The notes below the pieces were generated by a model. The model worked only from the letters and a program-made list of their open reading frames with translations, was not told where the DNA came from and made no database searches. A stretch of DNA of 26,512 bases from the IMG/VR virus record IMGVR_UViG_2698536335_000001, positions 1 to 26,512 of that record, one strand, 5' to 3'. The DNA is from a virus. Lineage: Duplodnaviria; Heunggongvirae; Uroviricota; Caudoviricetes. Made by a program: the position numbers and the translations under genes. Within the stretch, counting starts at the first letter, position 1. Each line of letters begins with the position of its first letter. Positions 155 to 23,632 of this stretch are shown here, piece after piece.

Positions 155-334
155 ATGAATAAAATGGTGAGTAATATTATCATTTCTTTTATTTTATTTG
201 TTACTATAGTGGTGTTATTGTTTTTTATTCTTGAGATAAAAGATTTAATTATCAATTACTATGTCTTTTTATTAATACCTGCATTATGCGTACTGGCTGC
301 ATTCAAGATTATTAAGGAAAGAGTAAATGTTTGA
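155..334 (+). CDS. small hydrophobic membrane peptide, 59 aa (MNKMVSNIIISFILFVTIVVLLFFILEIKDLIINYYVFLLIPALCVLAAFKIIKERVNV); absent from the ORF track
   Basis: ATG at 155 preceded by AAGAGG (143-148); two hydrophobic helices; TGA at 332-334 overlaps the ATG (327) of the next gene. Confidence 0.45.
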   Translation: MNKMVSNIIISFILFVTIVVLLFFILEIKDLIINYYVFLLIPALCVLAAFKIIKERVNV

Positions 335-1409
335 AACATATTTAACGTATAACACAATTCTTTTGTGTGGCGTATTAATATCATCAATCATTTGTTTTAT
401 TAATAGTGGTAAAGGCGTGGTTTACTTGCTATTATTTATGGCCCTTTTTATACCTGCCGCCATTCGGTACGGAGTTGGTTTAGATTTCTTTAATTATGTT
501 GATATTTTTAACAACCCAGAATATTACCAAGGCCAAATAGAAATAGGATTTTATTTAATTGTAAAGATTCTATCAACCACTGGATTTGGGTATCAAGCAT
601 TATTTGTATTATGCTCAGCGTTAACTGTAATCTTCTTTATGCTTTCAATAGAAAGAGATTCAGCATGGGCTTCTGTATTGATTTTCATATGCACTCTTTA
701 CCTGTCATCCTATTGTTTGTTAAGACAAGCTTTAGCGGTTAGTATTCTGATGTATAGTTGTAGACTATGGATTAATGATAAAAAATTAAATTCTATTATC
801 ATTATGCTGATTGCATGCTCAATGCATTACTCTGCCATACTTTTTGCTCCTTTATTGATAGCGTCCAGTGTATTCAGGCTTACTACGCTTCGTACATTAT
901 TTATAATGGGGTTTATTTCTATATTTGTTTTTGCGCTTCATGGTGTTGATTTGATATTTAATAATGAAATGTTTTTAAATTCAAAATATGGCTCATATGT
1001 TTCTTCTGGTTTCAATAAAGAAACTCAAATCGGAACCGGAGTTGGGGTTATAATACAAATATTAATTCCTGTATCCGTTGCTTTAATGGCGAATAGAATT
1101 TTAGAAATCAATAATAGATACAACATTGTGATATTCACAACGACTGCATTTTTTGCATCTTATCTACTTGCGACTCAAGTATATATATTTGGAAGAATGG
1201 CAGATGTTTTCTCTTTTTCTTTGGTTTTTGCTGCGCCTATTCTTCTTAGGTCAGCAAAAAGCAATATATCAAAGATAGTTTTTGTTGGTATGATTTGTCT
1301 TTACGTTCCTGTCATGCAGGCCACAATAGCAAATAATAACTTTAAAGCCAACGAACTTTCTGGTTCTGGGCTTGGGATATCTCCTTATAAAACTGTTTTT
1401 GATAAATAG
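327..1409 (+). CDS. polytopic membrane protein, EpsG/Wzy-like polysaccharide (O-antigen) polymerase candidate
   Basis: 360 aa with about ten hydrophobic segments; RYGVGLDFFNY resembles the EpsG-family R-x-x-G-x-D-x-x-x-Y signature (from memory); AT-rich codon usage; AAGGA RBS at 314-318. Confidence 0.65.
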   Translation: MFETYLTYNTILLCGVLISSIICFINSGKGVVYLLLFMALFIPAAIRYGVGLDFFNYVDIFNNPEYYQGQIEIGFYLIVKILSTTGFGYQALFVLCSALTVIFFMLSIERDSAWASVLIFICTLYLSSYCLLRQALAVSILMYSCRLWINDKKLNSIIIMLIACSMHYSAILFAPLLIASSVFRLTTLRTLFIMGFISIFVFALHGVDLIFNNEMFLNSKYGSYVSSGFNKETQIGTGVGVIIQILIPVSVALMANRILEINNRYNIVIFTTTAFFASYLLATQVYIFGRMADVFSFSLVFAAPILLRSAKSNISKIVFVGMICLYVPVMQATIANNNFKANELSGSGLGISPYKTVFDK

Positions 1410-1460: not shown

Positions 1461-3725
1461 TCAGATCCTCTGAGTACCAGCAAGAATGACATCAAAAGCA
1501 GCGTAGCTTAACGTTGCCGGGTTTATGACTGCCCCTGATGCATCCTTAACTTTTATAATCACTGAAGTACCCCCATCCAAGACGGCCATGTATGAGTGTA
1601 TTGTGTCAACTGTAGGGCTCGCTATTACGTGGGTTTTAGTATACCAGTTCTTCTTTATTGGTATCCTGATGCAAGGGACTGCTGTATCAATAACTGGTGT
1701 TCCAAACACACTACTTCCATATGATGTAGATAACACGCCTGCCGTGAAAGTGAAACTGCACAGATCCATTCCAACAGGATTTACTTGTGAAGAGTTGCTT
1801 CCATAAGCGCTTCCTGCACCGACAGATTTAAAGTTGGTTACAGCTTCAGGGTTTCTAAGTGTTAGAATGTGAGGAACGCTTGTAGTATCCTCTTCTCTTA
1901 GCATTGCTATAGCTGGCACAGCCGAATCATTCATTAATGCCATACCCTGCGCTTCTTCTCCATATACAACGCTCCAAAAATCAACTAATTCCCCAGTGTA
2001 TTTGAACACATATATACCGTTATCGGAAAGGAAGTGGATAAATCCACCGTGCGCAACCATACCTTGAGGATTTCCATCAAATGAAGCGACAGGATACTCA
2101 AAGGAACTAATTAGTTGCTTGGAATTAATATCAATAATTGAGAAAAATTCATTTGGTGAACCAACTTTCCCAGTTGCAAGAACAAGCAAATCATGCTCAT
2201 TATCGATGCTGATGGTTGCTCCCATGCCGTACTGAGTTAAATCCCATGTTTCTGTAATTGATTTTCCATCAGTAGCAAGGATGTAAACTTCAGCATCAAA
2301 TTCTGAACCACCAGAGCTTACATATACTCTACCATCTAATTTACGCCATGCAGCGGAACTTGCATGTTTTAAAGGCAGTGTAACCTGACCATATGAGTTA
2401 TCAACGCTACCGTCTCTTTCATATCTAAACACTTGTCCGTTAACACCACCAATATCATATCCAACTATGAATTTTCCAATGGAGAAATCATACGCTAATC
2501 CTTGTGGTCTTTTTTGAGTACCAGTTGTTGGGACGGAAGTGATAGTAAATTCATAAAATCTTCTAAAAACATCGTTATCACCAAACGCCCCCCCTCTTCC
2601 TGGTGCAAGAATGCTATTTGCTCTTGGGTTGCTGTAATTTCCAGCCATTATAACTTTAGCACCCGAAACAGAAGAAATACCGCTAGTTCCGTCTGGTACA
2701 TATATGACACCCGAGGCAAGCATTGTTGGACCAGAAAGCGTTAATGGAAGTGAATATTTTTTTGATGCTGACAGCGCAGATTCTATAGCGTGAGTATCAT
2801 CATCTATACCATTTCTTTTTGCTCCGAAAAACTCAGGAGCTACATCATTGCACTCTCTCTTCCATCTATTACCACCAGATGTAACTATTGTTACGCCGTC
2901 ATCATCAATAGTTGTTGAATCAGTATTGTCGTAATAAAAGTAACCACCTCCAGTACCAGATCCTAATGTATGCTCTAAAACAAATATTCTTTGCTGTGTA
3001 TTTGTTGGTTCTATATTGCGTAAATTAGAAATGGAAGCACAATTGCCAATAAGTTTTAAGCCATCACTTGCTGCTAGCTGAATCATTACATCGGATGCAG
3101 ATCCAGACTGTGGAAGGACCATAATAGGATTACCATTGTCATCCATCGCTACCACTTTGTTTTTACGATTCTCAGCATCAGGCAAACTTGGTATTGGCTC
3201 AGGCGTTCTAAGAGTACGACCTAGATTTGTATTAGCAAGTTTATCGACATAATTTTTAGTCGCTGCATCCTGAGGGCGCGAAGGATCACGCAGGTTTCTG
3301 ATGTAGTTGTTAATAGCGTCATAATAATTCGCCACAAAAGATGGCTTACGAAGAGCAAGTGAAAACCAACTTCTTACCTGCTGGATCAGCATCGTTAGCT
3401 TATCAAACGCGTCCTCGTGCACCTCAGCAAAAAACTTACCCTGGTTTCTAAGATCTGTTTCCTGAGTAACCGGTAGTTCTCGCAATATGGAAATCTGATA
3501 ACCATTAGCCAGTGCCTTCGACAGAATTACATTGCCACCGTTATACCCTCCCGCACCAGTGACTGTGTAATCAGTATCAAGATCCAGCACAGTGATATTC
3601 TCGTCAAGGTCAATCACCTGCACTACTAAATCAGATTTATTGAAAACCCTAAAGGTATAAGGGAATGATGTCGTAACGCCGTTACCGGTGTATTCGTTGT
3701 GGTTAACTTCGGTTGAGACCGTCAT
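1461..3725 (-). CDS. tailspike / tail fibre protein, 754 aa
   Basis: N-terminal ~150 aa resemble the T7 gp17-type tail-attachment domain (by recall); long Gly/Ser/Thr/Asn-rich C-terminal part typical of beta-helical receptor-binding domains; GGAGA RBS; last gene of the virion operon. Confidence 0.8.
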   Translation of the reverse strand: MTVSTEVNHNEYTGNGVTTSFPYTFRVFNKSDLVVQVIDLDENITVLDLDTDYTVTGAGGYNGGNVILSKALANGYQISILRELPVTQETDLRNQGKFFAEVHEDAFDKLTMLIQQVRSWFSLALRKPSFVANYYDAINNYIRNLRDPSRPQDAATKNYVDKLANTNLGRTLRTPEPIPSLPDAENRKNKVVAMDDNGNPIMVLPQSGSASDVMIQLAASDGLKLIGNCASISNLRNIEPTNTQQRIFVLEHTLGSGTGGGYFYYDNTDSTTIDDDGVTIVTSGGNRWKRECNDVAPEFFGAKRNGIDDDTHAIESALSASKKYSLPLTLSGPTMLASGVIYVPDGTSGISSVSGAKVIMAGNYSNPRANSILAPGRGGAFGDNDVFRRFYEFTITSVPTTGTQKRPQGLAYDFSIGKFIVGYDIGGVNGQVFRYERDGSVDNSYGQVTLPLKHASSAAWRKLDGRVYVSSGGSEFDAEVYILATDGKSITETWDLTQYGMGATISIDNEHDLLVLATGKVGSPNEFFSIIDINSKQLISSFEYPVASFDGNPQGMVAHGGFIHFLSDNGIYVFKYTGELVDFWSVVYGEEAQGMALMNDSAVPAIAMLREEDTTSVPHILTLRNPEAVTNFKSVGAGSAYGSNSSQVNPVGMDLCSFTFTAGVLSTSYGSSVFGTPVIDTAVPCIRIPIKKNWYTKTHVIASPTVDTIHSYMAVLDGGTSVIIKVKDASGAVINPATLSYAAFDVILAGTQRI

Positions 3726-3778
3726 GTTAAATCTCCAGATAGTCGCAGCACCCGTTGCGCCGCATATCCGATTATTCT

Positions 3779-3845
3779 ATTACCTGAAAAACCATATATG
3801 GATAGGTAGACCATGAATACAAACAGATATTACCTTTCAGGTAAT
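3779..3845. promoter_or_regulatory. pair of inverted 11-mers ATTACCTGAAA (3779-3789) and TTTCAGGTAAT (3835-3845); the second is part of the 17-bp palindrome ATTACCTTTCAGGTAAT (3829-3845)
   Basis: Read directly in the intergenic region upstream of the tailspike gene; the same 17-mer recurs at 20444-20460. Confidence 0.35.
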
Positions 3846-3881
3846 TTGCAAAACGTGCTGGATAGCAAACAAATTATTTGA

Positions 3882-3901
3882 TACTGTATAAATATACAGT
3901 T
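3882..3901 (+). promoter_or_regulatory. LexA (SOS) box TACTGTATAAATATACAGTT
   Basis: CTGT (3884-3887), 8-nt AT-rich spacer, ACAG (3896-3899); 18 of 20 positions match the E. coli consensus TACTGTATATATATACAGTA; 20 bp upstream of the ATG at 3921. Confidence 0.7.
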
Positions 3902-3920: not shown

Positions 3921-4178
3921 ATGCAGCAGTATCACTATCCACTGGAAGACGGATTTACCGAAAGGATTCACACGCCGGGAGGCGTCAGGTCACTGGTGGA
4001 GGGATCGCACTTGATGAAATTACTCCGGGATCTCGATAAGGATGGATTTAATGTCGATGGCCCACTTGCCGAACTGACTGCACTGATTAACTACGTCACC
4101 AGCTCACAGATGTCTATGCAGGATCTGCAAACACATCTCGACTATTGTGCCAAACAATTACGAAAACAAATCACATAA
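3921..4178 (+). CDS. SOS-regulated hypothetical protein, 85 aa, acidic (MQQYHYPLEDGFTERIHTPGG...)
   Basis: ATG at 3921 with GGAGA RBS (3909-3913); the track start at 3903 is a TTG extension; LexA box immediately upstream; convergent with the virion operon. Confidence 0.6.
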   Translation: MQQYHYPLEDGFTERIHTPGGVRSLVEGSHLMKLLRDLDKDGFNVDGPLAELTALINYVTSSQMSMQDLQTHLDYCAKQLRKQIT

Positions 4179-4370: not shown

Positions 4371-6845
4371 TTATTGCGGAGTGACATCCTGTGGTCGCCA
4401 CCAGTATGTCTGGTTAAACTCTTTCTTCGAACGTTGCTCCATTTTATGCAAATAACCTGGTGAAAAATACTCCTGCATCTGGTTAAAGATCATGTGATCG
4501 AGAGCCGCCTTTAAGTACCAGAGATTCGCACCTGGCATCAGACCTTTCCCCAGCTTAACCAGATCACCACCAGTCTGCTCATTCTTCCCTTCCACAGCAT
4601 TTAACGGTATACCCTGAGCAATCTTCACTACGTCATCAACCAGACCAGCTACCGGGCCAAGCATCGACGCCAGCGCGCCGCTTCCGTACCTAGTGTGATC
4701 TGACAATAAAAAGTCACCGTAAAGGCCAAGACCACCACCTTTCAGTAGAGCACCAAGCCAAAATTTAGCAGCATCTTCTCCTGTCATCTCGCGAGGATTA
4801 CGACCAGACGCAAGGTCGTTAAGTTGCTGCGACAAAGCGCCAAGAATGGTCGTACTGGCAATAAACGTCGCAATATATGCCGCACGCCCACCAGCAGACG
4901 GCATACCCATAGCGCGTGACCAGTGACGCATAACAACCGAGATAGGGAACGATTTAAACAGGAAAACACTTCTCGTTAATTCACCTTTCCATGTTCCACG
5001 CTGAATACCAGAACCGGTTATCAGTTGCTCACGTGCTCCCGGTGTAATAACAGCCATATCAATTTCTTCAGTTACGGCACCGAGCAGTTTACGCATTGCC
5101 TCAAATTTCACGCGTTCAGGTTCACCAAGATGTTTAACTGCTGAATCAGGGATACGCATAATGCTTTCCGGTGTCAGCATCGTATTATTACCGTTCCCCC
5201 AGTCCTCCTGTTGCGCCAGCTTCCATACGCTCCAGTCTGTGTCAGTAATCCCTTTGCTTTTCAGGATACGAAAATCAGAGTCATCGAGGCTACGAAGGTC
5301 TGGTGTCCGTGACACTACTTCTCCCAGGCTTCCCATCATGGTTACGCCATAGGCGCGCTTGTGCGCATCTGACCATGCTGTAAGCCCACTGGCACGCATT
5401 ACCGCCGTTGCCGCCCAACGAGACACTGACGGCCCCATATTATCCATCGCCCATCGGTTAACGCTGCCAAGTAGAGATTCCATCGCCAGACCAGCGCGGC
5501 GCGCCCGCGCAAGTTCTGTACGGTTCGTTGGGTCCATAGCTTCAAGCTGGTTGCGGAATAACTGGTTCATTGGAAGGTTGGTAACCTTCGCAGACAGATA
5601 CATGGTTCCAAGATCAGAGAACGATGACAGCAACGCGGATCCGAGTCTGCTGGCAACCAGCCAGTTGCGGATATTGTCAGACCATCGCGCGATGTGCGGA
5701 TTCGCTACAGGCTGTGTCTTTCCGGAAATAAAGTTGTACAGATTCTCTGTGTTGTTCGCCAGCCGCTCGACTTTACCGGTTTTACTCGGGTTAGCTGTTG
5801 CCGTTTCTGCCTTCACCTGATCAAGAAGAGAGCGGAAAACATGATCGGGGTTTGGGCCATATGTTTCCACCAGTGCAATATCTTTACTGATACCTTCCAG
5901 GTGACCGACCATGATTTCCCATAGAGAGCGATCGCCATAAAGTTGCTGATATTGCAGATAGGAATCTGCATCTTTGAAATGTATCTGTCGTGATGCATTA
6001 CCACGGTTAGCACGTGCGCCGGAAATTCGCATTCCGGTATCAGTAAGCTTATTCAGCCCACCAGTAGCGATCGTGTTATAAGCCTCTCCAAGAAATGCAG
6101 ACAACTCAGCATCGTTCATCAGTTGTCCATCGGCTCGGGTATAATATTTGCGATCCAGCTTACCTATAACATCGCTAACCCACTTATCCTTTGATACCGC
6201 CCCAACCTTTTCCATAGAATGATGTTGAGGGATCCCCCAGTTTTCGAGATAGCCAATGTCCCCACCAGCATCATTAAACCGGCGGCGCAGTAGCTCTGTC
6301 ACTTCTCTCCACGCCTTAGCACCTTTTCTTGCTTTAGCATTGCCCGTATTTTGCCCTCGCATTTCATATACCAGGTCACGCACGCCAGCTTCATCTTCAA
6401 ACAGGCCAAAAAAGCGAGGATCAACTGCTTCAAATGCCTCCTGCAATTGACTCAATGCATAATCACGAGTGGCTTTTGTTCTGGACTCAACAGAGAGGAA
6501 ATTCGATTTACCGTCTGCATTAAAAGCAATAGTACGGTTAAGAGCGCCAAGTTTCCCATCAGCCCCTTGATAGCTATTGATAAATTTATCCAATCTCTGA
6601 CGTGCGGCTATAGTGAGGGCCACACGACGTTTCTTTAATGCCGCTTCTCGCTGTAATTCTTCAGATGCCAATTGTGCTGCACGATATAGCCGCTCTGATT
6701 CGGAAAGTTGTCTCCACGACATCGGGTCATCACGAGCAATGGAGCGCATATTTCGATAAATGCGGTCTTCAATGTTCTGTATTTCTCGCGCCGTTAACGT
6801 GCGCTGCGCCGCCTGCTGGACCGCTTGTATACATTCCTGTCTCAT
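4371..6845 (-). CDS. internal virion / ejection protein (T7 gp16-position), 824 aa
   Basis: Large protein in the position between tail tubular genes and tail fibre, as in T7-like gene order; RBS present. Confidence 0.75.
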   Translation of the reverse strand: MRQECIQAVQQAAQRTLTAREIQNIEDRIYRNMRSIARDDPMSWRQLSESERLYRAAQLASEELQREAALKKRRVALTIAARQRLDKFINSYQGADGKLGALNRTIAFNADGKSNFLSVESRTKATRDYALSQLQEAFEAVDPRFFGLFEDEAGVRDLVYEMRGQNTGNAKARKGAKAWREVTELLRRRFNDAGGDIGYLENWGIPQHHSMEKVGAVSKDKWVSDVIGKLDRKYYTRADGQLMNDAELSAFLGEAYNTIATGGLNKLTDTGMRISGARANRGNASRQIHFKDADSYLQYQQLYGDRSLWEIMVGHLEGISKDIALVETYGPNPDHVFRSLLDQVKAETATANPSKTGKVERLANNTENLYNFISGKTQPVANPHIARWSDNIRNWLVASRLGSALLSSFSDLGTMYLSAKVTNLPMNQLFRNQLEAMDPTNRTELARARRAGLAMESLLGSVNRWAMDNMGPSVSRWAATAVMRASGLTAWSDAHKRAYGVTMMGSLGEVVSRTPDLRSLDDSDFRILKSKGITDTDWSVWKLAQQEDWGNGNNTMLTPESIMRIPDSAVKHLGEPERVKFEAMRKLLGAVTEEIDMAVITPGAREQLITGSGIQRGTWKGELTRSVFLFKSFPISVVMRHWSRAMGMPSAGGRAAYIATFIASTTILGALSQQLNDLASGRNPREMTGEDAAKFWLGALLKGGGLGLYGDFLLSDHTRYGSGALASMLGPVAGLVDDVVKIAQGIPLNAVEGKNEQTGGDLVKLGKGLMPGANLWYLKAALDHMIFNQMQEYFSPGYLHKMEQRSKKEFNQTYWWRPQDVTPQ

Positions 6846-18161: not shown

Positions 18162-18458
18162 TCACTCCTGTTCACTGGCCTCTTTGGCCATCTTCAAATA
18201 CTGTTCAGGGCAATGCGCCATAACGCGCTGAAACAGTTCCAGCGCCAGATTGCGTTGCCCCTCATTAAATGCCATTGCCATAGCGTCCATCGGTGAGATA
18301 GCGGAAAACACACGGCCTTTCTCCAGCACCGACCAGACAACGCGACGCCCCTGTTCACTGCTCATGACAAAGCGAATGTCATCAATTTCACGCTGTGCCA
18401 TGTCACGTTGCTTACGGGCGTTTTCTTCTTTCAGTTGATCGTCTTCGTAATCTGTCAT
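18162..18458 (-). CDS. hypothetical head-morphogenesis protein, 98 aa
   Basis: Start overlaps the portal stop by 4 nt; charged helical protein. Confidence 0.55.
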   Translation of the reverse strand: MTDYEDDQLKEENARKQRDMAQREIDDIRFVMSSEQGRRVVWSVLEKGRVFSAISPMDAMAMAFNEGQRNLALELFQRVMAHCPEQYLKMAKEASEQE

Positions 18459-20134
18459 TGTGATTGCCCACCCTGACCACTAACTGCATTCGCCATAGCT
18501 GACAACACACTCGGATCCGAAGTTTTAGCTTCGCTTAGCGTCTTGGCCCCCTGTGCCGCCGCCATCCCCATCGCCATCATTTGTTGCTGCTGTTGTTGCT
18601 GTGCCCGTTGCTGGCGAGCCTGCTCAACCTGTTCCTGCGGAACAATGACGGTTGGAGACACTCCGGACATATCAGCGAATGCATCGATCGCCTGATCAAC
18701 GTTGAGTTTGTCGAGAGCTTCTGGTTTCGCTTGCGCAAGTTGACCAATGAAGTTAACCGTGGACGCCAGACTGGACAGGCCGATAGACTTCTGCGCCTGA
18801 GCCATGACGGAAATGTATTCGACCTTCAGGGGCATGCCTTCCATCGCGTCAGGCGGTGGCGGCAGCATGTTTTTACGCACCATCATCGAGAAAGCGCGGT
18901 CAATGAGAGGATTAAGACATTCGTCGTTCAGACGCTCCAGAACCGGCCCCAACATCAGAAGTTTTTCTTCTTTCATTTCGATCACCGCTTCAACAGGCAT
19001 CGAGCGGGTATTGATGTTCTGCAACATCATGAACAGATCGACAAAGTAGGCGCTGTTAATGATTTGACGAGTGTCCTGAATGTCTGCCACCAAATCTGCT
19101 GTACTGGGGTTAACCAGATAAGCAGGCCTGAAGCCATCCTGACCAGTAATCTGATCGATATACGTGATGTCGCCAGGAAGAAGGGAGGCGCGCTGATTCT
19201 TGAGGGAAGTCGGAGCAACCATCGGCGGATTGGTGGCTTTATCAATCAACTGCGACTTGCGCTTCTGGAGAAGCTGCAATGCCTTAACAGGTCCAAGCGC
19301 CAGCATACCCGGGCATGATGATCCATAAACATCTTCGCCGTTAACTTCCCAGCGCGGAGCCATAATTGGAAACTCATCGAATCCGGACTCACGCAACAAC
19401 TTGTCGTTATCGCCACCAACCTCGTAATAAACCGATTTGAATGGCTTGTTCTTGCTATCCAGCTTCGATGTGTCGCGGTCAATATTCGGGTAAACCGAAT
19501 GCATCACTTCAATCCACTTCTCGTAGGTGCCGCTTTCCCACATGCTTTTTACGGATTCGCTGACGTTATTTAGCCCGAACTCCTGAACAAGCTGACGAAC
19601 AGTCATAGAGAACTTGCGAAAACAGGTGTCCACACTGCCACGAGGTGAGTTAGCCAGGTAGTAACTACCAATCGGGAATGGCATTGTGCGAATGATGTCC
19701 TCGTCATCCTCCAGTACCGCCATTGCACCGGTGCTGTATGTGCCGAGGCTTCCGTATAACTGCGGAAGAGACTGGTAGAGATTCGACTTATTGAACATAT
19801 CGTTCATGCGGTTCTGCACCGCCTCAAGCCACAACTTAACAGGGCCATAATCCATCATTTCAGGATCTGGCGTAGCCAGGCGAAACCACGGACGGGCGGG
19901 GCTTGTGATGCCTGACATCATGCCGCTGGCGAGAGTGCGCGCCGCCATAGTCCCGGTCGAATCAATAATGCGTGTATTGCGTCGATCGTTACGGTTGACC
20001 TCAGAAGTCAGAAAGCGGGAACCACGCGGGTTGATGTAATCACTCAACTCGCGCCAGTGCGGCTCGAACGACTGACGCTCGCTTTCAAGTTGTGCGAACT
20101 GTTTGTTCAATCGCTCTTTAGTTGTTTCCGCCAT
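18455..20134 (-). CDS. portal (head-to-tail connector) protein, 559 aa
   Basis: Size and position between terminase and scaffold; GGAG RBS. Confidence 0.8.
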   Translation of the reverse strand: MAETTKERLNKQFAQLESERQSFEPHWRELSDYINPRGSRFLTSEVNRNDRRNTRIIDSTGTMAARTLASGMMSGITSPARPWFRLATPDPEMMDYGPVKLWLEAVQNRMNDMFNKSNLYQSLPQLYGSLGTYSTGAMAVLEDDEDIIRTMPFPIGSYYLANSPRGSVDTCFRKFSMTVRQLVQEFGLNNVSESVKSMWESGTYEKWIEVMHSVYPNIDRDTSKLDSKNKPFKSVYYEVGGDNDKLLRESGFDEFPIMAPRWEVNGEDVYGSSCPGMLALGPVKALQLLQKRKSQLIDKATNPPMVAPTSLKNQRASLLPGDITYIDQITGQDGFRPAYLVNPSTADLVADIQDTRQIINSAYFVDLFMMLQNINTRSMPVEAVIEMKEEKLLMLGPVLERLNDECLNPLIDRAFSMMVRKNMLPPPPDAMEGMPLKVEYISVMAQAQKSIGLSSLASTVNFIGQLAQAKPEALDKLNVDQAIDAFADMSGVSPTVIVPQEQVEQARQQRAQQQQQQQMMAMGMAAAQGAKTLSEAKTSDPSVLSAMANAVSGQGGQSQ

Positions 20135-20148
20135 TTCAATGACTCCGG

Positions 20149-20355
20149 TTACTGACCAAGCAGCGTTTTACCGCTGGTATTAGCGGTTGATGTGTCGCCC
20201 TGAGAACCGGTAAGCAGCGTAGAACTACGACCAGCAGCAGCGCGACGGCGACGTGTTTCTTCGTCGCGGGCATCAACAACGGCGGCATCCTGCTCCTGTG
20301 GTGCTGCCTGAACTTCTGGTGTTGCAGGCACTGATGGTGAGCTACCCATGCACAT
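20149..20355 (-). CDS. small Ser/Thr/Ala-rich hypothetical protein, 68 aa
   Basis: Shares an almost identical 16-nt translation-initiation sequence with the portal gene; chosen over the overlapping alternative frame 20136-20375. Confidence 0.4.
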   Translation of the reverse strand: MCMGSSPSVPATPEVQAAPQEQDAAVVDARDEETRRRRAAAGRSSTLLTGSQGDTSTANTSGKTLLGQ

Positions 20356-20423
20356 ATCAATGACTCCGTACGCAATTAAATTATTACCAATTTAACCACA
20401 TATGATTTATTTATCGTAGATAG

Positions 20424-20461
20424 TTGACATTTAACGCACAAATTATTACCTTTCAGGTAAC
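20424..20461 (+). promoter_or_regulatory. candidate promoter (TTGACA at 20424-20429, 17-bp spacer, TACCTT) overlapped by the 17-bp motif at 20444-20460
   Basis: Perfect -35 hexamer read directly; the -10 is weak; the 17-mer TATTACCTTTCAGGTAA is identical to the copy at 3828-3844. Confidence 0.3.
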
Positions 20462-20782
20462 CAAAGAGTTCATTCCGGTTACTAACCTGACTGGCTTGTC
20501 GTTAAATTGAACAGGTGGAGTGAGCTTTTATTTTGAGCAGTACGGCGTATGGCACATGCGCCGATAGCGGTCTGGATACGTTTAAGGGGCACCCTCCCTT
20601 GCTCGGGCAAACGAACCAGGTAGCCGGAATGTGCAAGTCGAGCGGTTTTATTCCGCGCACGGGGATTCACCATCCCGGCGATTCGGTGTGACGCCTCGGA
20701 AGAGACGAGGGTACAACGATGAGAGCATTTATGGAGCCGCGACAAAGTGTGGCGCCTTAACAGGCTAAGTGCTCTCAGCGTT

Positions 20783-20859
20783 GTGGCATTAGCTCAGTTG
20801 GACAGAGCAACCGCCTTCTAAGCGGTTGGTCGCAGGTTCGAATCCTGCATGCCACGCCA
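20783..20859 (+). tRNA. tRNA-Arg, anticodon TCT (reads AGA), 77 nt with encoded CCA
   Basis: Hand-folded cloverleaf: acceptor GTGGCAT/ATGCCAC, D arm GCTC/GAGC, anticodon stem ACCGC/GCGGT with loop CTTCTAA, T arm GCAGG-TTCGAAT-CCTGC; similar to but distinct from E. coli argU as I recall it. Confidence 0.9.
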
Positions 20860-20902
20860 GAATCACGCCTAAGGACCGTGATGCCAGAAGTTCCAGGGGC
20901 TT

Positions 20903-20945
20903 GGCGGTGATGGTTTCCCTTGAAGGACTATCACCGCCCTTTTTA
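20903..20945 (+). terminator. hairpin plus T-run downstream of the tRNA
   Basis: 9-bp stem ggcggtgat (20903-20911) / atcaccgcc (20930-20938) followed by CTTTTT. Confidence 0.5.
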
Positions 20946-21022
20946 CAGCAGGACGCCATTGCGATGACTTCATGCTGTAAACCAGTACAGCCACGGAAGG
21001 CATAACTCATTGCTTCCAGTTC

Positions 21023-21046
21023 GCCCGGTTCGCCGGGCATTTTTTT
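21023..21046 (+). terminator. GC-rich hairpin with seven T residues, abutting the RBS of the gene at 21063
   Basis: gcccgg-ttcg-ccgggc (21023-21038), A, then TTTTTTT (21040-21046); AAGGTGA RBS follows at 21047-21053. Confidence 0.6.
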
Positions 21047-21062
21047 AAGGTGAGATTAGACT

Positions 21063-21434
21063 ATGAGTGACAAAGACATTGAATCTGAAATTCAGGCTAA
21101 AGGTTTAGCCGCGCCGCGCGTTACGCCAGACCATATCGAGAGCATTATTGCTCAGGAGGCATATTTCACAGCAGAAGATGGTTCCTTTGGCGTAGCCATA
21201 AAAGCGAAACATACTGGCGGAGAGGTAAACTACCAGCCGCACGAATCACTTTCTCTGCTGACGTTCTGCGTCCTGGTGCTGCGCAACGGCTTCACCGTCA
21301 CCGGAGAGAGCGCCTGTGCAAGCCCGGAAAACTTTGATGCAGAAATTGGTCGGAAGATTGCCCGACAGAATGCTGTAAACAAAATCTGGATGCTTGAAGG
21401 TTACTTGCTGAAGCAGAAGTTAAGCGAGCAATAA
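21063..21434 (+). CDS. moron-encoded hypothetical protein, 123 aa; possibly N4 gp49 / Sf6 gene 66 family
   Basis: Strong RBS; segment LRNGFTVTGESACASPENFDAEIGRKIARQNA resembles the conserved core of that family as I recall it; opposite strand to the virion operon. Confidence 0.6.
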   Translation: MSDKDIESEIQAKGLAAPRVTPDHIESIIAQEAYFTAEDGSFGVAIKAKHTGGEVNYQPHESLSLLTFCVLVLRNGFTVTGESACASPENFDAEIGRKIARQNAVNKIWMLEGYLLKQKLSEQ

Positions 21435-21454
21435 CACCGTGACATATCACAAAC

Positions 21455-21481
21455 AGCCAGCCTATGAGCTGGCTTTGTTTT
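21455..21481 (+). terminator. hairpin plus T-rich tail after the moron gene
   Basis: agccagc-ctatga-gctggct (21455-21474) followed by TTGTTTT. Confidence 0.5.
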
Positions 21482-21524
21482 ATCCTCATCAGAGGATATC
21501 AACAACATTATCCCCTCAAGCGGA

Positions 21525-23000
21525 TTAAGCATAGGGATCGTAATCTGTGATGGCCTTGCCTTGCTGGTTCTGCTGCCCGGGAATTCGCAGACGCTTAGAC
21601 ACAGGGAACGCAAACGTCAGCAGTAGCGCATCGCCTTTACCCGGAGAACGCCCAAGCCGCTCTTTGATATCTTCCTTCGGTTCGATAACGATTTTACCGT
21701 CCACTCGAACTTTGTACTCTGCCGCCGACAGGTCGTCCGCTGTTTCCTGGTCATCCAGCATGCCGCCCAGCCTCAGCCATGTCTTACATGAGTTGAACAT
21801 CTCCCCACGCTTGTTAAGCATCTGCGGGTCAGTGGACGCACCGCCGAACGGAACAAGTTGCCATGTACGTCCCCAGCCATCACCGATTGACTTCAAACCG
21901 GTTCCGTAACCGAAGTCGATGAACACCGCGTCAGCCTGGTACTGGTCTTCAAAGTCAGCGATACGCTTCGCCATAATCAGATCGTCGGTGGTCTTGTTGC
22001 CGGTCCACAGCACCTTACTGTGCAGCCCCTGCCGCAGGTATATCACCGCGTCATCAACACCGGAGTATGCAGGGTCAACGCCGATTATCACCGGAGCATG
22101 TGCCACCTGCGCAGCAGTTACCACCCGTTTCATTGCCTCGTCAGTAAGACCGGTAGGGATAAACTGCAATTCAGATGCATCAGGGAATATGCCGCGCACA
22201 CGGATTTTAACGAAGTCGCTGTCTTCCCCGTAGTCATCAACCCATTTCTGCAACTGCTGTTTGTTAGTGCCTTCCACCGTCCGGCTGTCAATCTGCGCAG
22301 TTTTCCAGCGGTGTTTATACTTGCGGAAACATTCACGGAATCGCCCGGTATTACGCGTAGGGTTTCCGAACGCCACCCAAATAATCTCAGTGTCTTCGTC
22401 CGTAAGCGCACCCTCGGCAACTTCCCACACCAGATCCGCAATGTTCGACGCTTCATCAAACACCACGATGATGCGTTTGCGCTCGTTGTGTAGTCCGGCG
22501 AATGCCTCAGTGTTGTGCTCAGACCAGGGGATTGCGTCAGCCCGCCACCGCTTGTCGTGCCCAGGATCATTGCTGTACATCGCGGTAGCGGTACAGGTAA
22601 ACCAGTCTTTCGTGATAGCAAGGTTCGACCACTTGATAATTTCCGGCCAAGTCTTCGTTCGTAGCTGGTTGTCGGTGTTGGCGGTCACCACGACCTTACA
22701 ATCCTCGCAAGTGGACATGCCCCAGTTGATCAGCATTGAGATGAATGCGGATTTACCAATACCGTGACCAGAAGCACGTGCCAGCATAAGCGGCTGATAT
22801 CGCGTCTCTGGATTCTGCAGGTGATCACGTATCTCTCGGAACGCATCGGCCTGCCACTGACGTGGACCGGTGGCATGTGCCAGTTCAGTACCCTCTTCCC
22901 CCCACGGGAACGCATAGAGGGCATAGCCAAGCGGATCGTGAGTGAACCCTGCAATATCCTCGATTAACTGCTCTTCAGGAGATAACACTGTATCTGTCAC
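21525..23000 (-). CDS. terminase large subunit, 491 aa
   Basis: Walker A-like ASGHGIGKS and Walker B-like IIVVFDEAS in the N-terminal ATPase region, acidic nuclease-like C-terminal half; start overlaps the small-subunit stop. Confidence 0.85.
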   Translation of the reverse strand: MTDTVLSPEEQLIEDIAGFTHDPLGYALYAFPWGEEGTELAHATGPRQWQADAFREIRDHLQNPETRYQPLMLARASGHGIGKSAFISMLINWGMSTCEDCKVVVTANTDNQLRTKTWPEIIKWSNLAITKDWFTCTATAMYSNDPGHDKRWRADAIPWSEHNTEAFAGLHNERKRIIVVFDEASNIADLVWEVAEGALTDEDTEIIWVAFGNPTRNTGRFRECFRKYKHRWKTAQIDSRTVEGTNKQQLQKWVDDYGEDSDFVKIRVRGIFPDASELQFIPTGLTDEAMKRVVTAAQVAHAPVIIGVDPAYSGVDDAVIYLRQGLHSKVLWTGNKTTDDLIMAKRIADFEDQYQADAVFIDFGYGTGLKSIGDGWGRTWQLVPFGGASTDPQMLNKRGEMFNSCKTWLRLGGMLDDQETADDLSAAEYKVRVDGKIVIEPKEDIKERLGRSPGKGDALLLTFAFPVSKRLRIPGQQNQQGKAITDYDPYA

Positions 23001-23593
23001 TGATTACCATCCTGACGTTCTTTGAGTCGCTTCCTGGCTGCTGCTATGCGATCAGCAATTGTCACATTCACATTAACATCCAGGCGTTCTTTGAATGCGT
23101 TGACGTCGACGTGCTTACCAATCAGTTCGAGGTTCTTCACCTTGTCAGGCCATTTAATTTTTTTGAGGATTGTCTCTATCGAATCCTCGTTCATGTTCAT
23201 GATGGTCGATGACAGATCAAAGCCGCTAAGCGTAGTGCGCCAGATTTTCGGCCACTCGCGGATTGGCTTAAGGCTCCCATCGTCGTTGAGGATGTCGATC
23301 ACGTCCATCTGGTCGATCTCCACCAGGCGCATGAGAACGTAATCAGCACTGACGCGCATTCGTTTGTTGCGCTCCTCCATCAACTCGGCAATCCGTTTTT
23401 GAATGCGTTCATCGCGCATCATGACACTGGCTTTAACTGCCGCTGTATTTGGGGAGAATCCTGCATTAATCGCTGCCTGAGTCTGGTTTTCAGGCGTTTT
23501 GATGTATGACTGGCAATAAGCCTCCTGCATTGCTGTTAGTGGCTTAAATTGCGTTGATTTGCGTTTATAGGTTTTAGGTTCAGCAGGCATCAT
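22997..23593 (-). CDS. terminase small subunit, ~198 aa
   Basis: Immediately upstream of and overlapping the large subunit; helix-rich basic protein; ATG at 23593 (track start 23671 is a TTG extension running through a terminator and tandem repeat). Confidence 0.65.
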   Translation of the reverse strand: MMPAEPKTYKRKSTQFKPLTAMQEAYCQSYIKTPENQTQAAINAGFSPNTAAVKASVMMRDERIQKRIAELMEERNKRMRVSADYVLMRLVEIDQMDVIDILNDDGSLKPIREWPKIWRTTLSGFDLSSTIMNMNEDSIETILKKIKWPDKVKNLELIGKHVDVNAFKERLDVNVNVTIADRIAAARKRLKERQDGNQ

Positions 23594-23596
23594 AAC

Positions 23597-23632
23597 CACC
23601 GTGGTAATAGTTACCGTTGTGGTAATAGTACC
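23597..23632. repeat. tandem direct repeat, two copies of ~18 bp, core GTGGTAATAGT at 23601-23611 and 23619-23629
   Basis: Read directly: accgtggtaatagttaccgttgtggtaatagtacc, between the terminator and the terminase small-subunit start. Confidence 0.5.

What the first reader, a model, noticed from the sequence alone, without database searches (positions are those of the whole stretch)
20424..20461. Perfect -35 hexamer with the palindromic 17-mer over the -10 position
TTGACA at 20424-20429 is followed after 17 bp by TACCTT, which lies inside the same 17-mer found upstream of the tailspike gene. This is classical operator-over-promoter geometry, here facing the tRNA and moron on the plus strand. 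It implies the plus-strand island and the tailspike region answer to the same DNA-binding factor.
Basis: seen in the sequence. Interest (0 to 1): 0.45.

Follow-up and report, generated by a model that had tools for sequence, protein, structure and literature searches.

The report
Repressor-controlled promoter driving a phage RNA
This is a promoter of a phiV10/epsilon15-type temperate phage whose start region is covered by a binding site for the prophage repressor (an ordinary arrangement, with the site already annotated in epsilon15), but what it transcribes first is a conserved, apparently undescribed structured RNA, not just the tRNA and small gene.

Summary
TTGACA (20424-29), a 17-bp spacer and TACCTT (20447-52) lie where stated. 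The palindrome ATTACCTTTCAGGTAA(C/T) occurs at 20445-61 and 3829-45.

The window is a phiV10-like Uetakevirus. In the epsilon15 GenBank record the orthologous 17-mers are already annotated as repressor binding sites, so the shared factor is the SPC32H-type prophage repressor Rep. Its antirepressor Ant is encoded at 3921-4178 behind a LexA box.

Across 120 related phage contigs TTGAC(A/C)-N17-TACC(T/C)T keeps exact spacing while the spacer varies. Homology stops at the operator edge. This supports a plus-strand sigma-70 promoter with the operator over -14 to +3.

- At the tailspike locus the operator lies between two promoters, not over a -10.
- The promoter's most conserved cargo is a ~200-nt non-coding, structured RNA (20531-20734) with no Rfam match and compensatory changes at 17 of 33 pairs.
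- In lambdoid phages this RNA sits directly after cI and a PL-like promoter.
- tRNA-Arg(UCU) follows it. The PF13876 gene lies behind two terminator hairpins.

No transcript start or Rep binding data exist for this site.

The parts
20424..20429 (+). -35 hexamer TTGACA of the plus-strand promoter P(+)
   Evidence: Read. TTGAC is near-invariant (1 TTGGCA among 92 distinct sequences from 120 loci), while the 4 nt upstream and most of the spacer vary.
20447..20452 (+). -10 hexamer TACCTT (3 of 6 to consensus; keeps T-12, A-11, T-7), 17 bp after the -35
   Evidence: It is TACCTT or TACCCT in all relatives, and the T at -7 lies in the operator's otherwise variable centre yet is conserved.
20445..20461 (.). 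17-bp Rep operator ATTACCTTTCAGGTAAC (11 of 12 to ATTACC-N5-GGTAAT), covering about -14 to +3 of P(+)
   Evidence: The orthologous epsilon15 site 2931-2947 is annotated protein_bind 'repressor; lysogeny'. Homology to SPN1S, Tyrion and Klebsiella phages ends at its right edge.
20531..20734 (+). Conserved non-coding structured RNA candidate, the first product of P(+), starting about 70 nt after the inferred transcript start
   Evidence: Covariance-model hit of 161.9 bits, E=1.4e-46. Not coding, because distances between conserved blocks vary in all mod-3 classes. 95.6% of cells are paired and 17 of 33 pairs have compensatory changes against 6.8 in shuffles. No Rfam match.
20783..20859 (+). tRNA-Arg (anticodon UCU)
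   Evidence: ARAGORN and Rfam tRNA at 73.3 bits. A tRNA is present on the plus strand about 315-325 nt after the operator in most tRNA-bearing loci, 62 of 114 related islands in all. AGA codons run at 7.1 per 1000 in window genes and 23.8 per 1000 in the tailspike.
20903..20938 (+). Terminator-like hairpin T1 (14-bp stem, then CTTTTT) after the tRNA; its loop UUUCCCUUGAAGG resembles the loop of the RNA's variable hairpin
21023..21038 (+). Terminator-like hairpin T2 (GCCCGG-UUCG-CCGGGC followed by seven U) immediately before the ribosome-binding site of the small gene
   Evidence: epsilon15 has GCCCAC-UUCG-GUGGGC at the same place, a compensatory change, annotated there as a rho-independent terminator.
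21063..21434 (+). Small accessory gene (123 aa), Pfam Phage_gp49_66 (N4 Gp49 / Sf6 gene 66 family)
   Evidence: Pfam PF13876, E=2.4e-35. This slot holds other small genes in relatives, for example DUF2829.
21455..21474 (.). Bidirectional terminator between the island and terL
   Evidence: annotated as a terminator in phiV10.
20378..20406 (-). Candidate divergent late promoter for gp3-portal: ATCATA-N17-TAATTT, with spacer TGTGGTTAAATTGGTAA holding an operator half-site (ATTACC at 20383-20388 on the plus strand)
   Evidence: Its 23-bp core is identical in the 11 named relatives. The shared motif ATTACC-N5-AACC occurs only here and upstream of the tailspike, in both the window and epsilon15. Coordinates checked. 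Calling it a promoter is inference.
3829..3845 (.). Second Rep operator ATTACCTTTCAGGTAAT (12 of 12) in the tailspike-ant intergenic region
   Evidence: the orthologue of the epsilon15 site 19895-19911, annotated 'repressor'.
3859..3899 (+). Candidate ant promoter TGGATA-N17-TACTGT with a LexA box CTGTATAAATATACAG (3884-3899) over its -10
   Evidence: The hexamers and spacing are conserved in epsilon15. The CTGT-N8-ACAG consensus is from established knowledge.
3921..4178 (+). Antirepressor Ant
   Evidence: Matches the SPC32H anti-repressor, PDB 5d50 chain E, E=2.6e-46.
3774..3802 (-). Candidate tailspike promoter TCCATA-N17-TAGAAT, with the same spacer motif and half-site as the gp3 candidate
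   Evidence: epsilon15 has TTCATA-N17-TAGAAT (weight-matrix score 10.6).
23592..23626 (.). Two tandem operator-like sites (each 11 of 12, 18 bp apart) directly upstream of the likely terS start (ATGATG on the minus strand, first base at 23593)
   Evidence: The corresponding epsilon15 site 12-27 is annotated 'repressor'.

Best explanation
The feature is a sigma-70-type promoter firing rightward on the plus strand. Its parts are the -35 TTGACA, a 17-bp spacer and the -10 TACCTT, with an inferred start near 20458-20460.

A 17-bp operator for the phage's own lysogeny repressor covers its -10 and start region (about -14 to +3). That repressor is the SPC32H/epsilon15-type Rep.

**Proposed sequence of events**
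1. In a lysogen Rep sits on the operator and keeps RNA polymerase off.
2. After DNA damage LexA leaves the ant promoter (3859-3899).
3. Ant (3921-4178) takes Rep apart.
4. The promoter then fires as an early promoter, as it also would on fresh infection before Rep accumulates.

**The transcript**
- It first makes a ~200-nt structured RNA (20531-20734).
- It then makes tRNA-Arg(UCU), which suits the AGA-rich tail and tailspike genes.
- Only if two hairpin terminators are read through does it reach the PF13876 gene.

**Shown here**
- The sequence elements, their conservation and their exact spacing.
- Orthology to annotated repressor sites.
- The presence of Rep and Ant homologues.
- The conserved RNA and its covariation.

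**Inferred**
- That the promoter fires.
- That Rep binds this copy.
- The timing of expression.
- What the RNA does.
For: **Sequence and statistics**
- The coordinates are as stated.
- The palindrome is over-represented.
- The site ranks 5th of 264,770 positions in a sigma-70 weight-matrix scan.

**Conservation**
- In 11 named relatives and 120 IMG/VR contigs TTGAC(A/C)-N17-TACC(T/C)T has no indels and 35 different spacers.
- Conservation collapses right after GGTAA.
- BLAST homology to SPN1S, SPC32H, Tyrion and Klebsiella phages ends at window 20460-20463.

**Direction**
- Each of the 62 islands with a tRNA carries it on the plus strand.
- Annotated small genes in the islands of SPC32H, Tyrion and Klebsiella phages are on the plus strand too; BUCT554 and BUCT711 each also carry one annotated minus-strand hypothetical CDS.

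**Identity of the operator**
- The epsilon15 record annotates the orthologous 17-mers as repressor binding sites. Three further copies lie next to the repressor gene.
- phiV10 has about 12 such sites in front of nearly every operon.
- The early-left promoters of phiV10 and epsilon15 have the same style, TTGACA-N17-(A/G)ATTAT followed directly by the operator.

**The Rep-Ant switch**
- The window's Ant matches PDB 5d50_E at E=2.6e-46.
- phiV10 Rep matches 5d50_A at E=4e-42, with a conserved N-terminal helix-turn-helix region.
- Tetrameric Rep binding to palindromic sites and its disassembly by Ant are summarised in PMC9638917.

**The RNA as an early leader**
- The same RNA lies behind a cI-adjacent, PL-like promoter in lambdoid phages.
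Against: - The -10 is weak (3 of 6) and the consensus scan calls no promoter here.
- There are no transcript-start, RNA-seq or footprint data for this site in any phage that I could read. The three primary papers on epsilon15 and SPC32H are not held.
- The epsilon15 annotators marked the operator but no promoter.
- The operator also lies about 82 bp upstream of the gp3-portal operon, so it may serve that operon instead or as well.
- Two terminator-like hairpins stand between the tRNA and the PF13876 gene, so control of that gene by this promoter is uncertain.
- Part of the conservation could reflect shared descent of a short intergenic block rather than selection on a promoter.
Confidence: 0.72

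Rival explanations
1. The operator's main job is to hold down the divergent structural operon (gp3, portal and onward) on the minus strand. A Rep tetramer might bridge the full operator and the half-site inside the late-promoter spacer 62 bp away. The plus-strand TTGACA/TACCTT promoter would then be secondary or inactive.
For: - The annotated epsilon15 sites outside the immunity region lie upstream of same-strand operons, three of them structural: terS, gp3 and the tailspike.
- A second shared motif, ATTACC-N5-AACC(A/T)-(C/T)ATATG, occurs only between the operator and the gp3 and tailspike starts, 62 and 50 bp from the operator, in both the window and epsilon15. It overlaps weak sigma-70-like hexamers.
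- Rep is a tetramer with two DNA-binding pairs (PMC9638917).
Against: - It does not explain why TTGAC and its exact 17-bp distance to the operator are conserved while the spacer is free.
- It does not say what transcribes the plus-strand RNA and tRNA, for which no other conserved promoter is seen.
- The 62-bp and 50-bp spacings are not in the same helical phase.
- Half-site binding by Rep is untested.
- The two roles are not mutually exclusive.
Confidence: 0.15
2. The plus-strand promoter is real but constitutive. It would be a moron-type promoter active in the lysogen, with the palindrome too weak or too poorly placed for Rep to repress it.
For: - The last operator base is C rather than T (11 of 12).
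- tRNA and accessory-gene islands in prophages are often expressed in lysogens (general knowledge).
Against: - The half-sites TTACC and GGTAA are almost invariant at this site in 120 loci.
- They cover -14 to +3, a position from which a bound protein excludes polymerase (established principle).
- The orthologue in epsilon15 is a perfect 12 of 12 site.
Confidence: 0.07
3. The hexamers are a chance look-alike. The palindrome is only a shared boundary sequence at which phage modules recombine, with no transcriptional role here.
For: - Homology between phage lineages breaks exactly at the operator's right edge.
- The -10 is poor.
Against: - The site ranks 5th of 264,770 positions.
- The -35 and its spacing are conserved against a variable background.
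- The same 17-mer family flanks the repressor gene and is annotated as its binding site.
Confidence: 0.04

Closest known systems
Repressor (Rep) operators of epsilon15 / SPC32H-type Uetakevirus phages, with the Rep-Ant-LexA lytic switch
   Same: - The same 17-bp palindrome, ATTACC-N5-GGTAAT.
- The same two positions (upstream of gp3/portal and of the tailspike) are annotated 'repressor; lysogeny' in AY150271.2.
- Rep and Ant homologues match PDB 5d50.
- A LexA box lies in front of ant.
   Different: - The epsilon15 record annotates only the binding site. It gives no promoter, no direction and no target.
- phiV10-type records carry no operator annotation at all.
- Binding of Rep to this particular copy has not been shown in anything I could read.
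Lambda-type early promoter with overlapping operator (OL/PL)
   Same: - A strong -35 with the repressor site overlapping the -10 and start region.
- The phage's own early-left promoter has the same layout.
- In lambdoid relatives the same RNA follows the cI-adjacent, PL-like promoter.
   Different: - There is a single operator here rather than a cooperative triplet.
- It lies in the middle of the morphogenesis genes, between terL and portal.
- The repressor is not RecA-cleaved but is removed by an antirepressor (literature; details from memory of Kim & Ryu 2013).
HK022 put RNA (cis-acting antiterminator RNA just downstream of PL and PR)
   Same: - A structured RNA at the 5' end of a repressor-controlled early transcript (PMC9378689).
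- Terminator hairpins lie downstream in the window (T1, T2).
   Different: - There is no sequence similarity to the HK022 region spanning the immunity genes, 22-33 kb.
- It is about 200 nt with 5-7 helices, against about 70 nt with two stem-loops.
- No plus-strand intrinsic terminators were found after the RNA in three lambdoid contexts.
- Its activity is untested.
Mycobacteriophage L5 'stoperators' (repressor sites scattered through the genome; from memory)
   Same: One repressor has about a dozen sites in front of many operons across the genome.
   Different: These sites are palindromic and lie at or next to promoters. L5 stoperators are asymmetric, orientation-dependent sites inside transcription units.

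Membership tests
epsilon15/SPC32H-type Rep operator | 17-bp inverted repeat ATTACC-N5-GGTAAT | tested here: met
   20445-20461 matches 11 of 12 arm positions and 3829-3845 matches 12 of 12.
epsilon15/SPC32H-type Rep operator | Orthologous position annotated as a repressor binding site in a related genome | tested here: met
   epsilon15 sites 2931-2947 and 19895-19911 are protein_bind 'repressor'. The alignment is shown.
epsilon15/SPC32H-type Rep operator | Several copies per genome, including a cluster next to the repressor gene | tested here: met
   There are four copies in the window. About 12 occur in phiV10 (98% identical to the tested 2.5-kb region, 19500-22000), including sites flanking rep. 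The rep region itself lies outside the window.
epsilon15/SPC32H-type Rep operator | Cognate Rep and Ant proteins encoded by the phage | tested here: met
   Ant in the window matches 5d50_E at E=2.6e-46. phiV10 Rep matches 5d50_A at E=4e-42.
epsilon15/SPC32H-type Rep operator | Physical binding of Rep to this site | not testable with these tools
   Needs a gel-shift or footprint assay. The primary papers are not held.
Sigma-70 promoter | -35 and -10 hexamers at 16-18 bp spacing | tested here: inconclusive
   The -35 matches 6 of 6, the spacer is 17 bp, and the -10 matches only 3 of 6 but keeps A-11 and T-7. The site ranks 5th of 264,770 by weight matrix yet fails the stricter consensus scan.
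Sigma-70 promoter | Hexamers and spacing conserved while the spacer sequence drifts | tested here: met
   120 loci, no indels, 35 distinct spacers.
Sigma-70 promoter | Mapped transcript start | not testable with these tools
   No transcript data are available.
Moron (self-contained promoter-gene-terminator unit expressed from the prophage) | Own promoter directly upstream of the gene, and expression in the lysogen | tested here: inconclusive
   No promoter-like site was found between the tRNA and the gene. Two terminator hairpins precede the gene. The only conserved upstream promoter is overlapped by the repressor site. Expression itself was not measured.
HK022 put-type antiterminator RNA | Lies just downstream of a repressor-controlled early promoter | tested here: met
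   This holds in the window (about 70 nt after the inferred start) and in lambdoid contexts (30-40 nt after TTGACC/A-N17/18-TACATT).
HK022 put-type antiterminator RNA | Sequence or structure similarity to put (about 70 nt, two stem-loops) | tested here: not met
   nhmmer finds nothing in HK022 positions 22-33 kb. This RNA has 193 model positions and seven helices.
HK022 put-type antiterminator RNA | Promotes read-through of downstream terminators | not testable with these tools
   T1 and T2 exist in the window, but no plus-strand terminators were found in three lambdoid contexts.
Any Rfam family (for the RNA at 20531-20734) | Covariance-model match | tested here: not met
   Only the tRNA is found at E<=1 in 20300-21600. 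Nothing reaches gathering score in 8 other loci that carry the RNA.

The most novel reading that the evidence does not exclude
The real cargo of this repressor-controlled promoter may be a new, widespread class of phage leader RNA.

**What supports it**
- It is about 200 nt long, with five to seven helices and a conserved UCCUUG-type loop.
- It occurs once per genome in all 99 phage sequences searched.
- It sits at the 5' end of early transcripts in Uetakeviruses, HK97-like lambdoid phages, Stx2-converting phages and a P1-like phage.

**What it might do**
- It may act in cis on RNA polymerase, as put does, to carry transcription through the terminator hairpins before the accessory gene.
- Alternatively it may act in trans on ribosome-binding sites through its anti-Shine-Dalgarno-like loop.
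Probability: 0.25. Interest if true: 0.7.

Novelty: new member of a known kind. Interest (0 to 1): 0.42.

Why it matters
**The promoter-operator pair.** On its own it is routine. It adds a direction and a target to a repressor site that epsilon15 annotators had already marked, and it extends that annotation to phiV10-type coliphages of O157 and other E. coli.

**One Rep-Ant-LexA switch appears to gate three things.** Rep-type operators sit at this island's promoter, in the tailspike-ant intergenic region, and in front of nearly every operon of phiV10. The island's tRNA-Arg(UCU) decodes AGA, and 18 of the window's 51 AGA codons are in the tailspike gene.

**The RNA is the more valuable by-product.** It is a conserved structured RNA that is absent from Rfam and from the literature I could search. 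It is always placed right behind a repressor-controlled early promoter, including next to cI in Stx2-converting prophages. If it proves functional, it would be a new regulatory element of temperate enterobacterial phages, with an obvious experimental handle.

Tried and rejected
- **Primary papers.** I tried to read Kropinski 2007 (PMC2698709), Kim & Ryu 2013 (PMC3807360) and Kim et al. 2016 (PMC4983836). None is held. Statements about Rep and Ant rest on PMC9638917, PDB matches and memory.
- **Minus-strand promoter over the operator.** A -10-like TAATAA or TAATAT exists there, but the -35 region would fall in the unconserved DNA right of the operator. Rejected.
- **Alternative -10 (AATTAT) for P(+).** It lies only 11 bp from the -35. 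Rejected.
- **Short ORF after the operator in Klebsiella and BUCT554 phages.** It is 14-24 aa and not conserved. Rejected.
- **Coding potential of 20531-20734.** Distances between conserved blocks vary in all mod-3 classes and no frame is open in all sequences. Rejected.
- **Rfam.** No family matches.
- **Genome-contig scan with a 14-mer.** It was swamped by chance matches. Only Kosakonia sacchari (L136) is a real hit. This was a wasted scan.
- **Similarity to HK022 put.** None found.
- **Identity with sRNA-17 of E. coli K1.** That RNA is also 193 nt and lies in a mEp460-like prophage, but its published sequence is unrelated.
- **Literature search for the RNA and operator sequences as strings.** Only unrelated primer matches came back.
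- **Intrinsic terminators after the RNA in lambdoid contexts.** None on the plus strand, so the antitermination idea gains no support there.

Full report
**1. The observation**

The sequence is as described. TTGACA is at 20424-20429, the 17-nt spacer at 20430-20446, and TACCTT at 20447-20452. TACCTT lies inside ATTACCTTTCAGGTAAC (20445-20461).

The 15-nt core TTACCTTTCAGGTAA recurs exactly at 3830-3844, in the intergenic region upstream of the 754-aa tailspike ORF (1461-3725, minus strand). Shuffles give a mean of 0.04 matches, and none of 100 reaches the observed count.

A simple sigma-70 weight matrix ranks the site 5th of 264,770 positions in the window. The -10 is weak, with only T-12, A-11 and T-7 matching. 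For that reason the tool's stricter consensus scan reports no promoter here.

**2. What the window is**

The tested 2.5-kb region (19500-22000) is 98% identical to Escherichia phage phiV10 (Uetakevirus, the epsilon15 group). The structural genes run on the minus strand:
- terS and terL (21525-23000)
- a 68-aa gp3 homologue (20149-20355)
- portal (18455-20134)
- further genes down to the tailspike

Between terL and gp3 lies a plus-strand island holding tRNA-Arg(UCU) (20783-20859) and a 123-aa Phage_gp49_66 protein (PF13876).

**3. The palindrome is a known repressor operator**

The epsilon15 GenBank record annotates 17-bp protein_bind features, 'repressor; lysogeny', at seven places:
- the two orthologous positions, 2931-2947 upstream of gp3/portal and 19895-19911 upstream of the tailspike
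- three copies beside the repressor gene
- one before terS
- one before a RuvC-like gene

The consensus is ATTACC-N5-GGTAAT. The window holds four sites with at least 11 of 12 matches, at 3829, 20445, and a tandem pair at 23592 and 23610 just upstream of the likely terS start. phiV10 holds about 12, in front of nearly every operon.

The repressor is of the SPC32H Rep type. phiV10 p40 matches PDB 5d50 chain A at E=4e-42. The window ORF 3921-4178 matches the SPC32H antirepressor, 5d50 chain E, at E=2.6e-46.

According to PMC9638917, Rep binds palindromic sites as a tetramer and Ant breaks the tetramer. A LexA box, CTGTATAAATATACAG (3884-3899), lies over the -10 of a conserved ant promoter candidate, TGGATA-N17-TACTGT. 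This fits the LexA-controlled antirepressor switch that I recall from Kim & Ryu 2013, a paper I could not read.

**4. Is there a plus-strand promoter?**

Comparative evidence says yes.
- In 11 named relatives and 120 IMG/VR contigs retrieved with a neighbouring invariant block, TTGAC(A/C) stands exactly 17 bp before TACC(T/C)T. One locus has TTGGCA. There are no indels.
- The four bases upstream and most of the spacer vary, with 35 distinct spacers among 92 distinct sequences.
- The T at -7 lies in the operator's otherwise variable centre and is conserved.
- Conservation falls to background immediately after GGTAA. BLAST homology to SPN1S, SPC32H, Tyrion and Klebsiella phages ends at window 20460-20463.
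- The promoter and operator therefore belong to the conserved block, and whatever lies downstream is exchangeable cargo.
- The island varies from 453 to 1706 bp. Each of the 62 (of 114) islands with a tRNA-Arg(UCU) carries it on the plus strand, usually about 315-325 nt after the operator.
- The early-left promoters of phiV10 and epsilon15 have the same design, TTGACA-N17-(A/G)ATTAT followed directly by an operator.
- With TACCTT as the -10, the operator spans about -14 to +3.

**5.

*The tailspike locus.* There the operator is not over a -10. It sits between the ant promoter candidate (operator centre about -57) and a tailspike promoter candidate on the minus strand, TCCATA-N17-TAGAAT at 3802 to 3774 (operator centre about -70).

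*A second shared motif.* ATTACC-N5-AACC(A/T)-(C/T)ATATG occurs only upstream of gp3 (20383) and of the tailspike (3779), in both the window and epsilon15.
- Read on the structural strand, it forms the spacer of weak sigma-70-like promoters. These are ATCATA-N17-TAATTT for gp3, and TCCATA or TTCATA-N17-TAGAAT for the tailspike.
- It contains an operator half-site.
- The full operator lies 62 and 50 bp away respectively.
- Whether Rep bridges the two is speculation. It is the basis of my main rival explanation.

**6. What the promoter transcribes**

Nearly all islands (110 of 114) share a ~190-200-nt element that starts 20-70 nt after the inferred transcript start.

It is not coding. Distances between its invariant blocks take all values mod 3, and no reading frame is open throughout.

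*Structure.*
- RNAalifold on 28 diverse copies gives seven helices.
- A covariance model built from them finds exactly one copy in each of 99 phage sequences. The window copy is 20531-20734 at 161.9 bits.
- On the resulting 94 distinct sequences, 95.6% of cells pair and 17 of 33 pairs show changes on both sides. Shuffles give 6.8 +/- 1.4, and 0 of 500 reach the observed value. Slid controls pair at 48% or less.
- That alignment is fitted to the model, so it leans towards the structure.
- A variable hairpin that MAFFT misaligns covaries plainly: CGGGG:CCCCG, UGGC:GCCA, CAGGG:CCCUG, GAGU:ACUU, GAGAG:CUCUC, UGGA:UCCA and GAUG:CAUC. It carries a conserved (U)UCCUUG loop.

*No known family.* Rfam 15 has no match. 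A text search for the conserved sequence strings found nothing relevant.

**7. The same RNA in other phages**

Sampling by the RNA rather than by the promoter gave 64 new contigs. Of these, 52 have no Rep-type operator within 700 nt upstream.
- In those contigs the RNA lies directly after a lambda-type cI gene (HTH plus peptidase S24). That gene is divergent from P22-type cro and cII.
- A terminator follows cI, then a sigma-70 promoter, TTGACC/A-N17/18-TACATT.
- That promoter is flanked by the host phage's own operator-like repeats, for example GGTAAC-N5-GTACA in three copies.
- The same layout is seen in mEp390 and in Stx2-converting phage Stx2a_1447. Full or partial copies occur in mEp460, Stx2c phages, the P1-like phage D6 and Klebsiella myoviruses.

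In every context examined the RNA leads a transcript from a promoter that is, or looks, repressor-controlled. This independently supports reading P(+) as an early, Rep-gated promoter.

The position is the one occupied by nutL in lambda and putL in HK022 (PMC9378689). However:
- there is no sequence similarity to HK022;
- the RNA is about three times larger than put;
- no plus-strand terminators follow it in three lambdoid contexts.

Its function remains unknown.

**8. The rest of the island**

- After the tRNA comes hairpin T1 (20903-20938, followed by CTTTTT). Its loop, UUUCCCUUGAAGG, echoes the RNA's variable-hairpin loop.
- epsilon15 looks like a deletion between these two similar motifs. 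It has lost the 3' part of the RNA and the tRNA (the model scores only 41 bits in epsilon15).
- T2 (21023-21038, a UUCG tetraloop followed by seven U) abuts the ribosome-binding site of the PF13876 gene. It covaries with epsilon15 (GCCCGG:CCGGGC against GCCCAC:GUGGGC).
- No promoter-like site lies between the tRNA and the gene.
- The gene would therefore depend on read-through from P(+). Calling it a lysogen-expressed moron is doubtful.

*Codon use.* AGA codons run at 7.1 per 1000 in the window's genes. Of the 51 AGA codons, 18 are in the tailspike gene (23.8 per 1000), while the head and packaging genes have none. The tRNA would matter mainly for tail and tailspike synthesis during lytic growth.

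**9. Verdict**

The element is an ordinary repressor-over-promoter arrangement that belongs to an operator family already annotated in epsilon15. I classify it as a new member of a known kind, new only in its assigned direction and target.

My best explanation is a Rep-repressed early promoter (confidence about 0.72). It rests on sequence conservation and orthology, not on transcript or binding data.

The most interesting outcome is the conserved structured RNA behind it, which I could not find described anywhere.

Noticed in passing
window 20531-20734 (+); also L257 6419-6604, L317 (mEp390) 3002-3187, L320 (Stx2a_1447) 2413-2615, L136 (Kosakonia sacchari) 3316-3492 (-): A conserved ~200-nt structured, non-coding RNA occurs once in each phage sequence searched. 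It has no Rfam match. It always lies just downstream of an early promoter that is, or looks, repressor-controlled (a strong sigma-70 promoter with no operator identified in Kosakonia), and in lambdoid phages directly after cI.
   Followed up: yes
window 20376-20406 and 3774-3803 (structural strand is minus): A shared motif, ATTACC-N5-AACC(A/T)-(C/T)ATATG, occurs only upstream of gp3 and of the tailspike, in both the window and epsilon15. It forms the spacer of weak sigma-70-like promoter candidates and contains an operator half-site 62 and 50 bp from the full operator.
   Followed up: partly
window 3859-3899 and 3921-4178 (+): A perfect LexA box, CTGTATAAATATACAG, lies over the -10 of a conserved promoter candidate in front of an 85-aa ORF. 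That ORF matches the SPC32H antirepressor (PDB 5d50_E).
   Followed up: partly
window 23592-23626: Two tandem operator-like sites, 18 bp apart, abut an ATGATG start. The 224-aa terS ORF (annotated this way in phiV10) would contain both operators, so the true terS start is probably the downstream ATG at 23593.
   Followed up: partly
window 20903-20938 and 21023-21038 (+); L003 (epsilon15) 2559-2720: Two terminator-like hairpins stand between the tRNA and the PF13876 gene. T1's loop repeats the RNA's UUCCCUUG loop motif. epsilon15 appears to have lost the RNA's 3' part and the tRNA by a deletion between these two similar motifs.
   Followed up: partly
window genes overall; tailspike 1461-3725 (-): AGA codons are concentrated in the tailspike (18 of the window's 51) and the tail genes. 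Head, portal and terminase genes have none. This matches the phage-borne tRNA-Arg(UCU).
   Followed up: yes
window 327-1409 (+): A 360-aa EpsG-family (Wzy-like) membrane protein lies downstream of the tailspike in an AT-rich stretch that holds three of the window's four strongest promoter-like sites. phiV10 has an O-acetyltransferase at this position, so this phage carries a different serotype-conversion module.
   Followed up: no
L001 (phiV10) 2790-3041 (-), equivalent to window 20789-21040: The phiV10 record annotates a hypothetical CDS (PhiV10p04) antisense to the tRNA-Arg gene and does not annotate the tRNA. The CDS is probably spurious.
   Followed up: no
L136 (Kosakonia sacchari) 3493-3760 (-): Here a strong promoter (TTGACA-N18-TATATT) and a 33-aa hydrophobic ORF precede the RNA, a context different from both the Uetakevirus and the lambdoid ones.
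   Followed up: no
L257 6605-7400; L253 (flipped) 5330-5759: In lambdoid contexts 400-800 nt without a convincing ORF follow the RNA before the next gene. There may be more non-coding function there.
   Followed up: no
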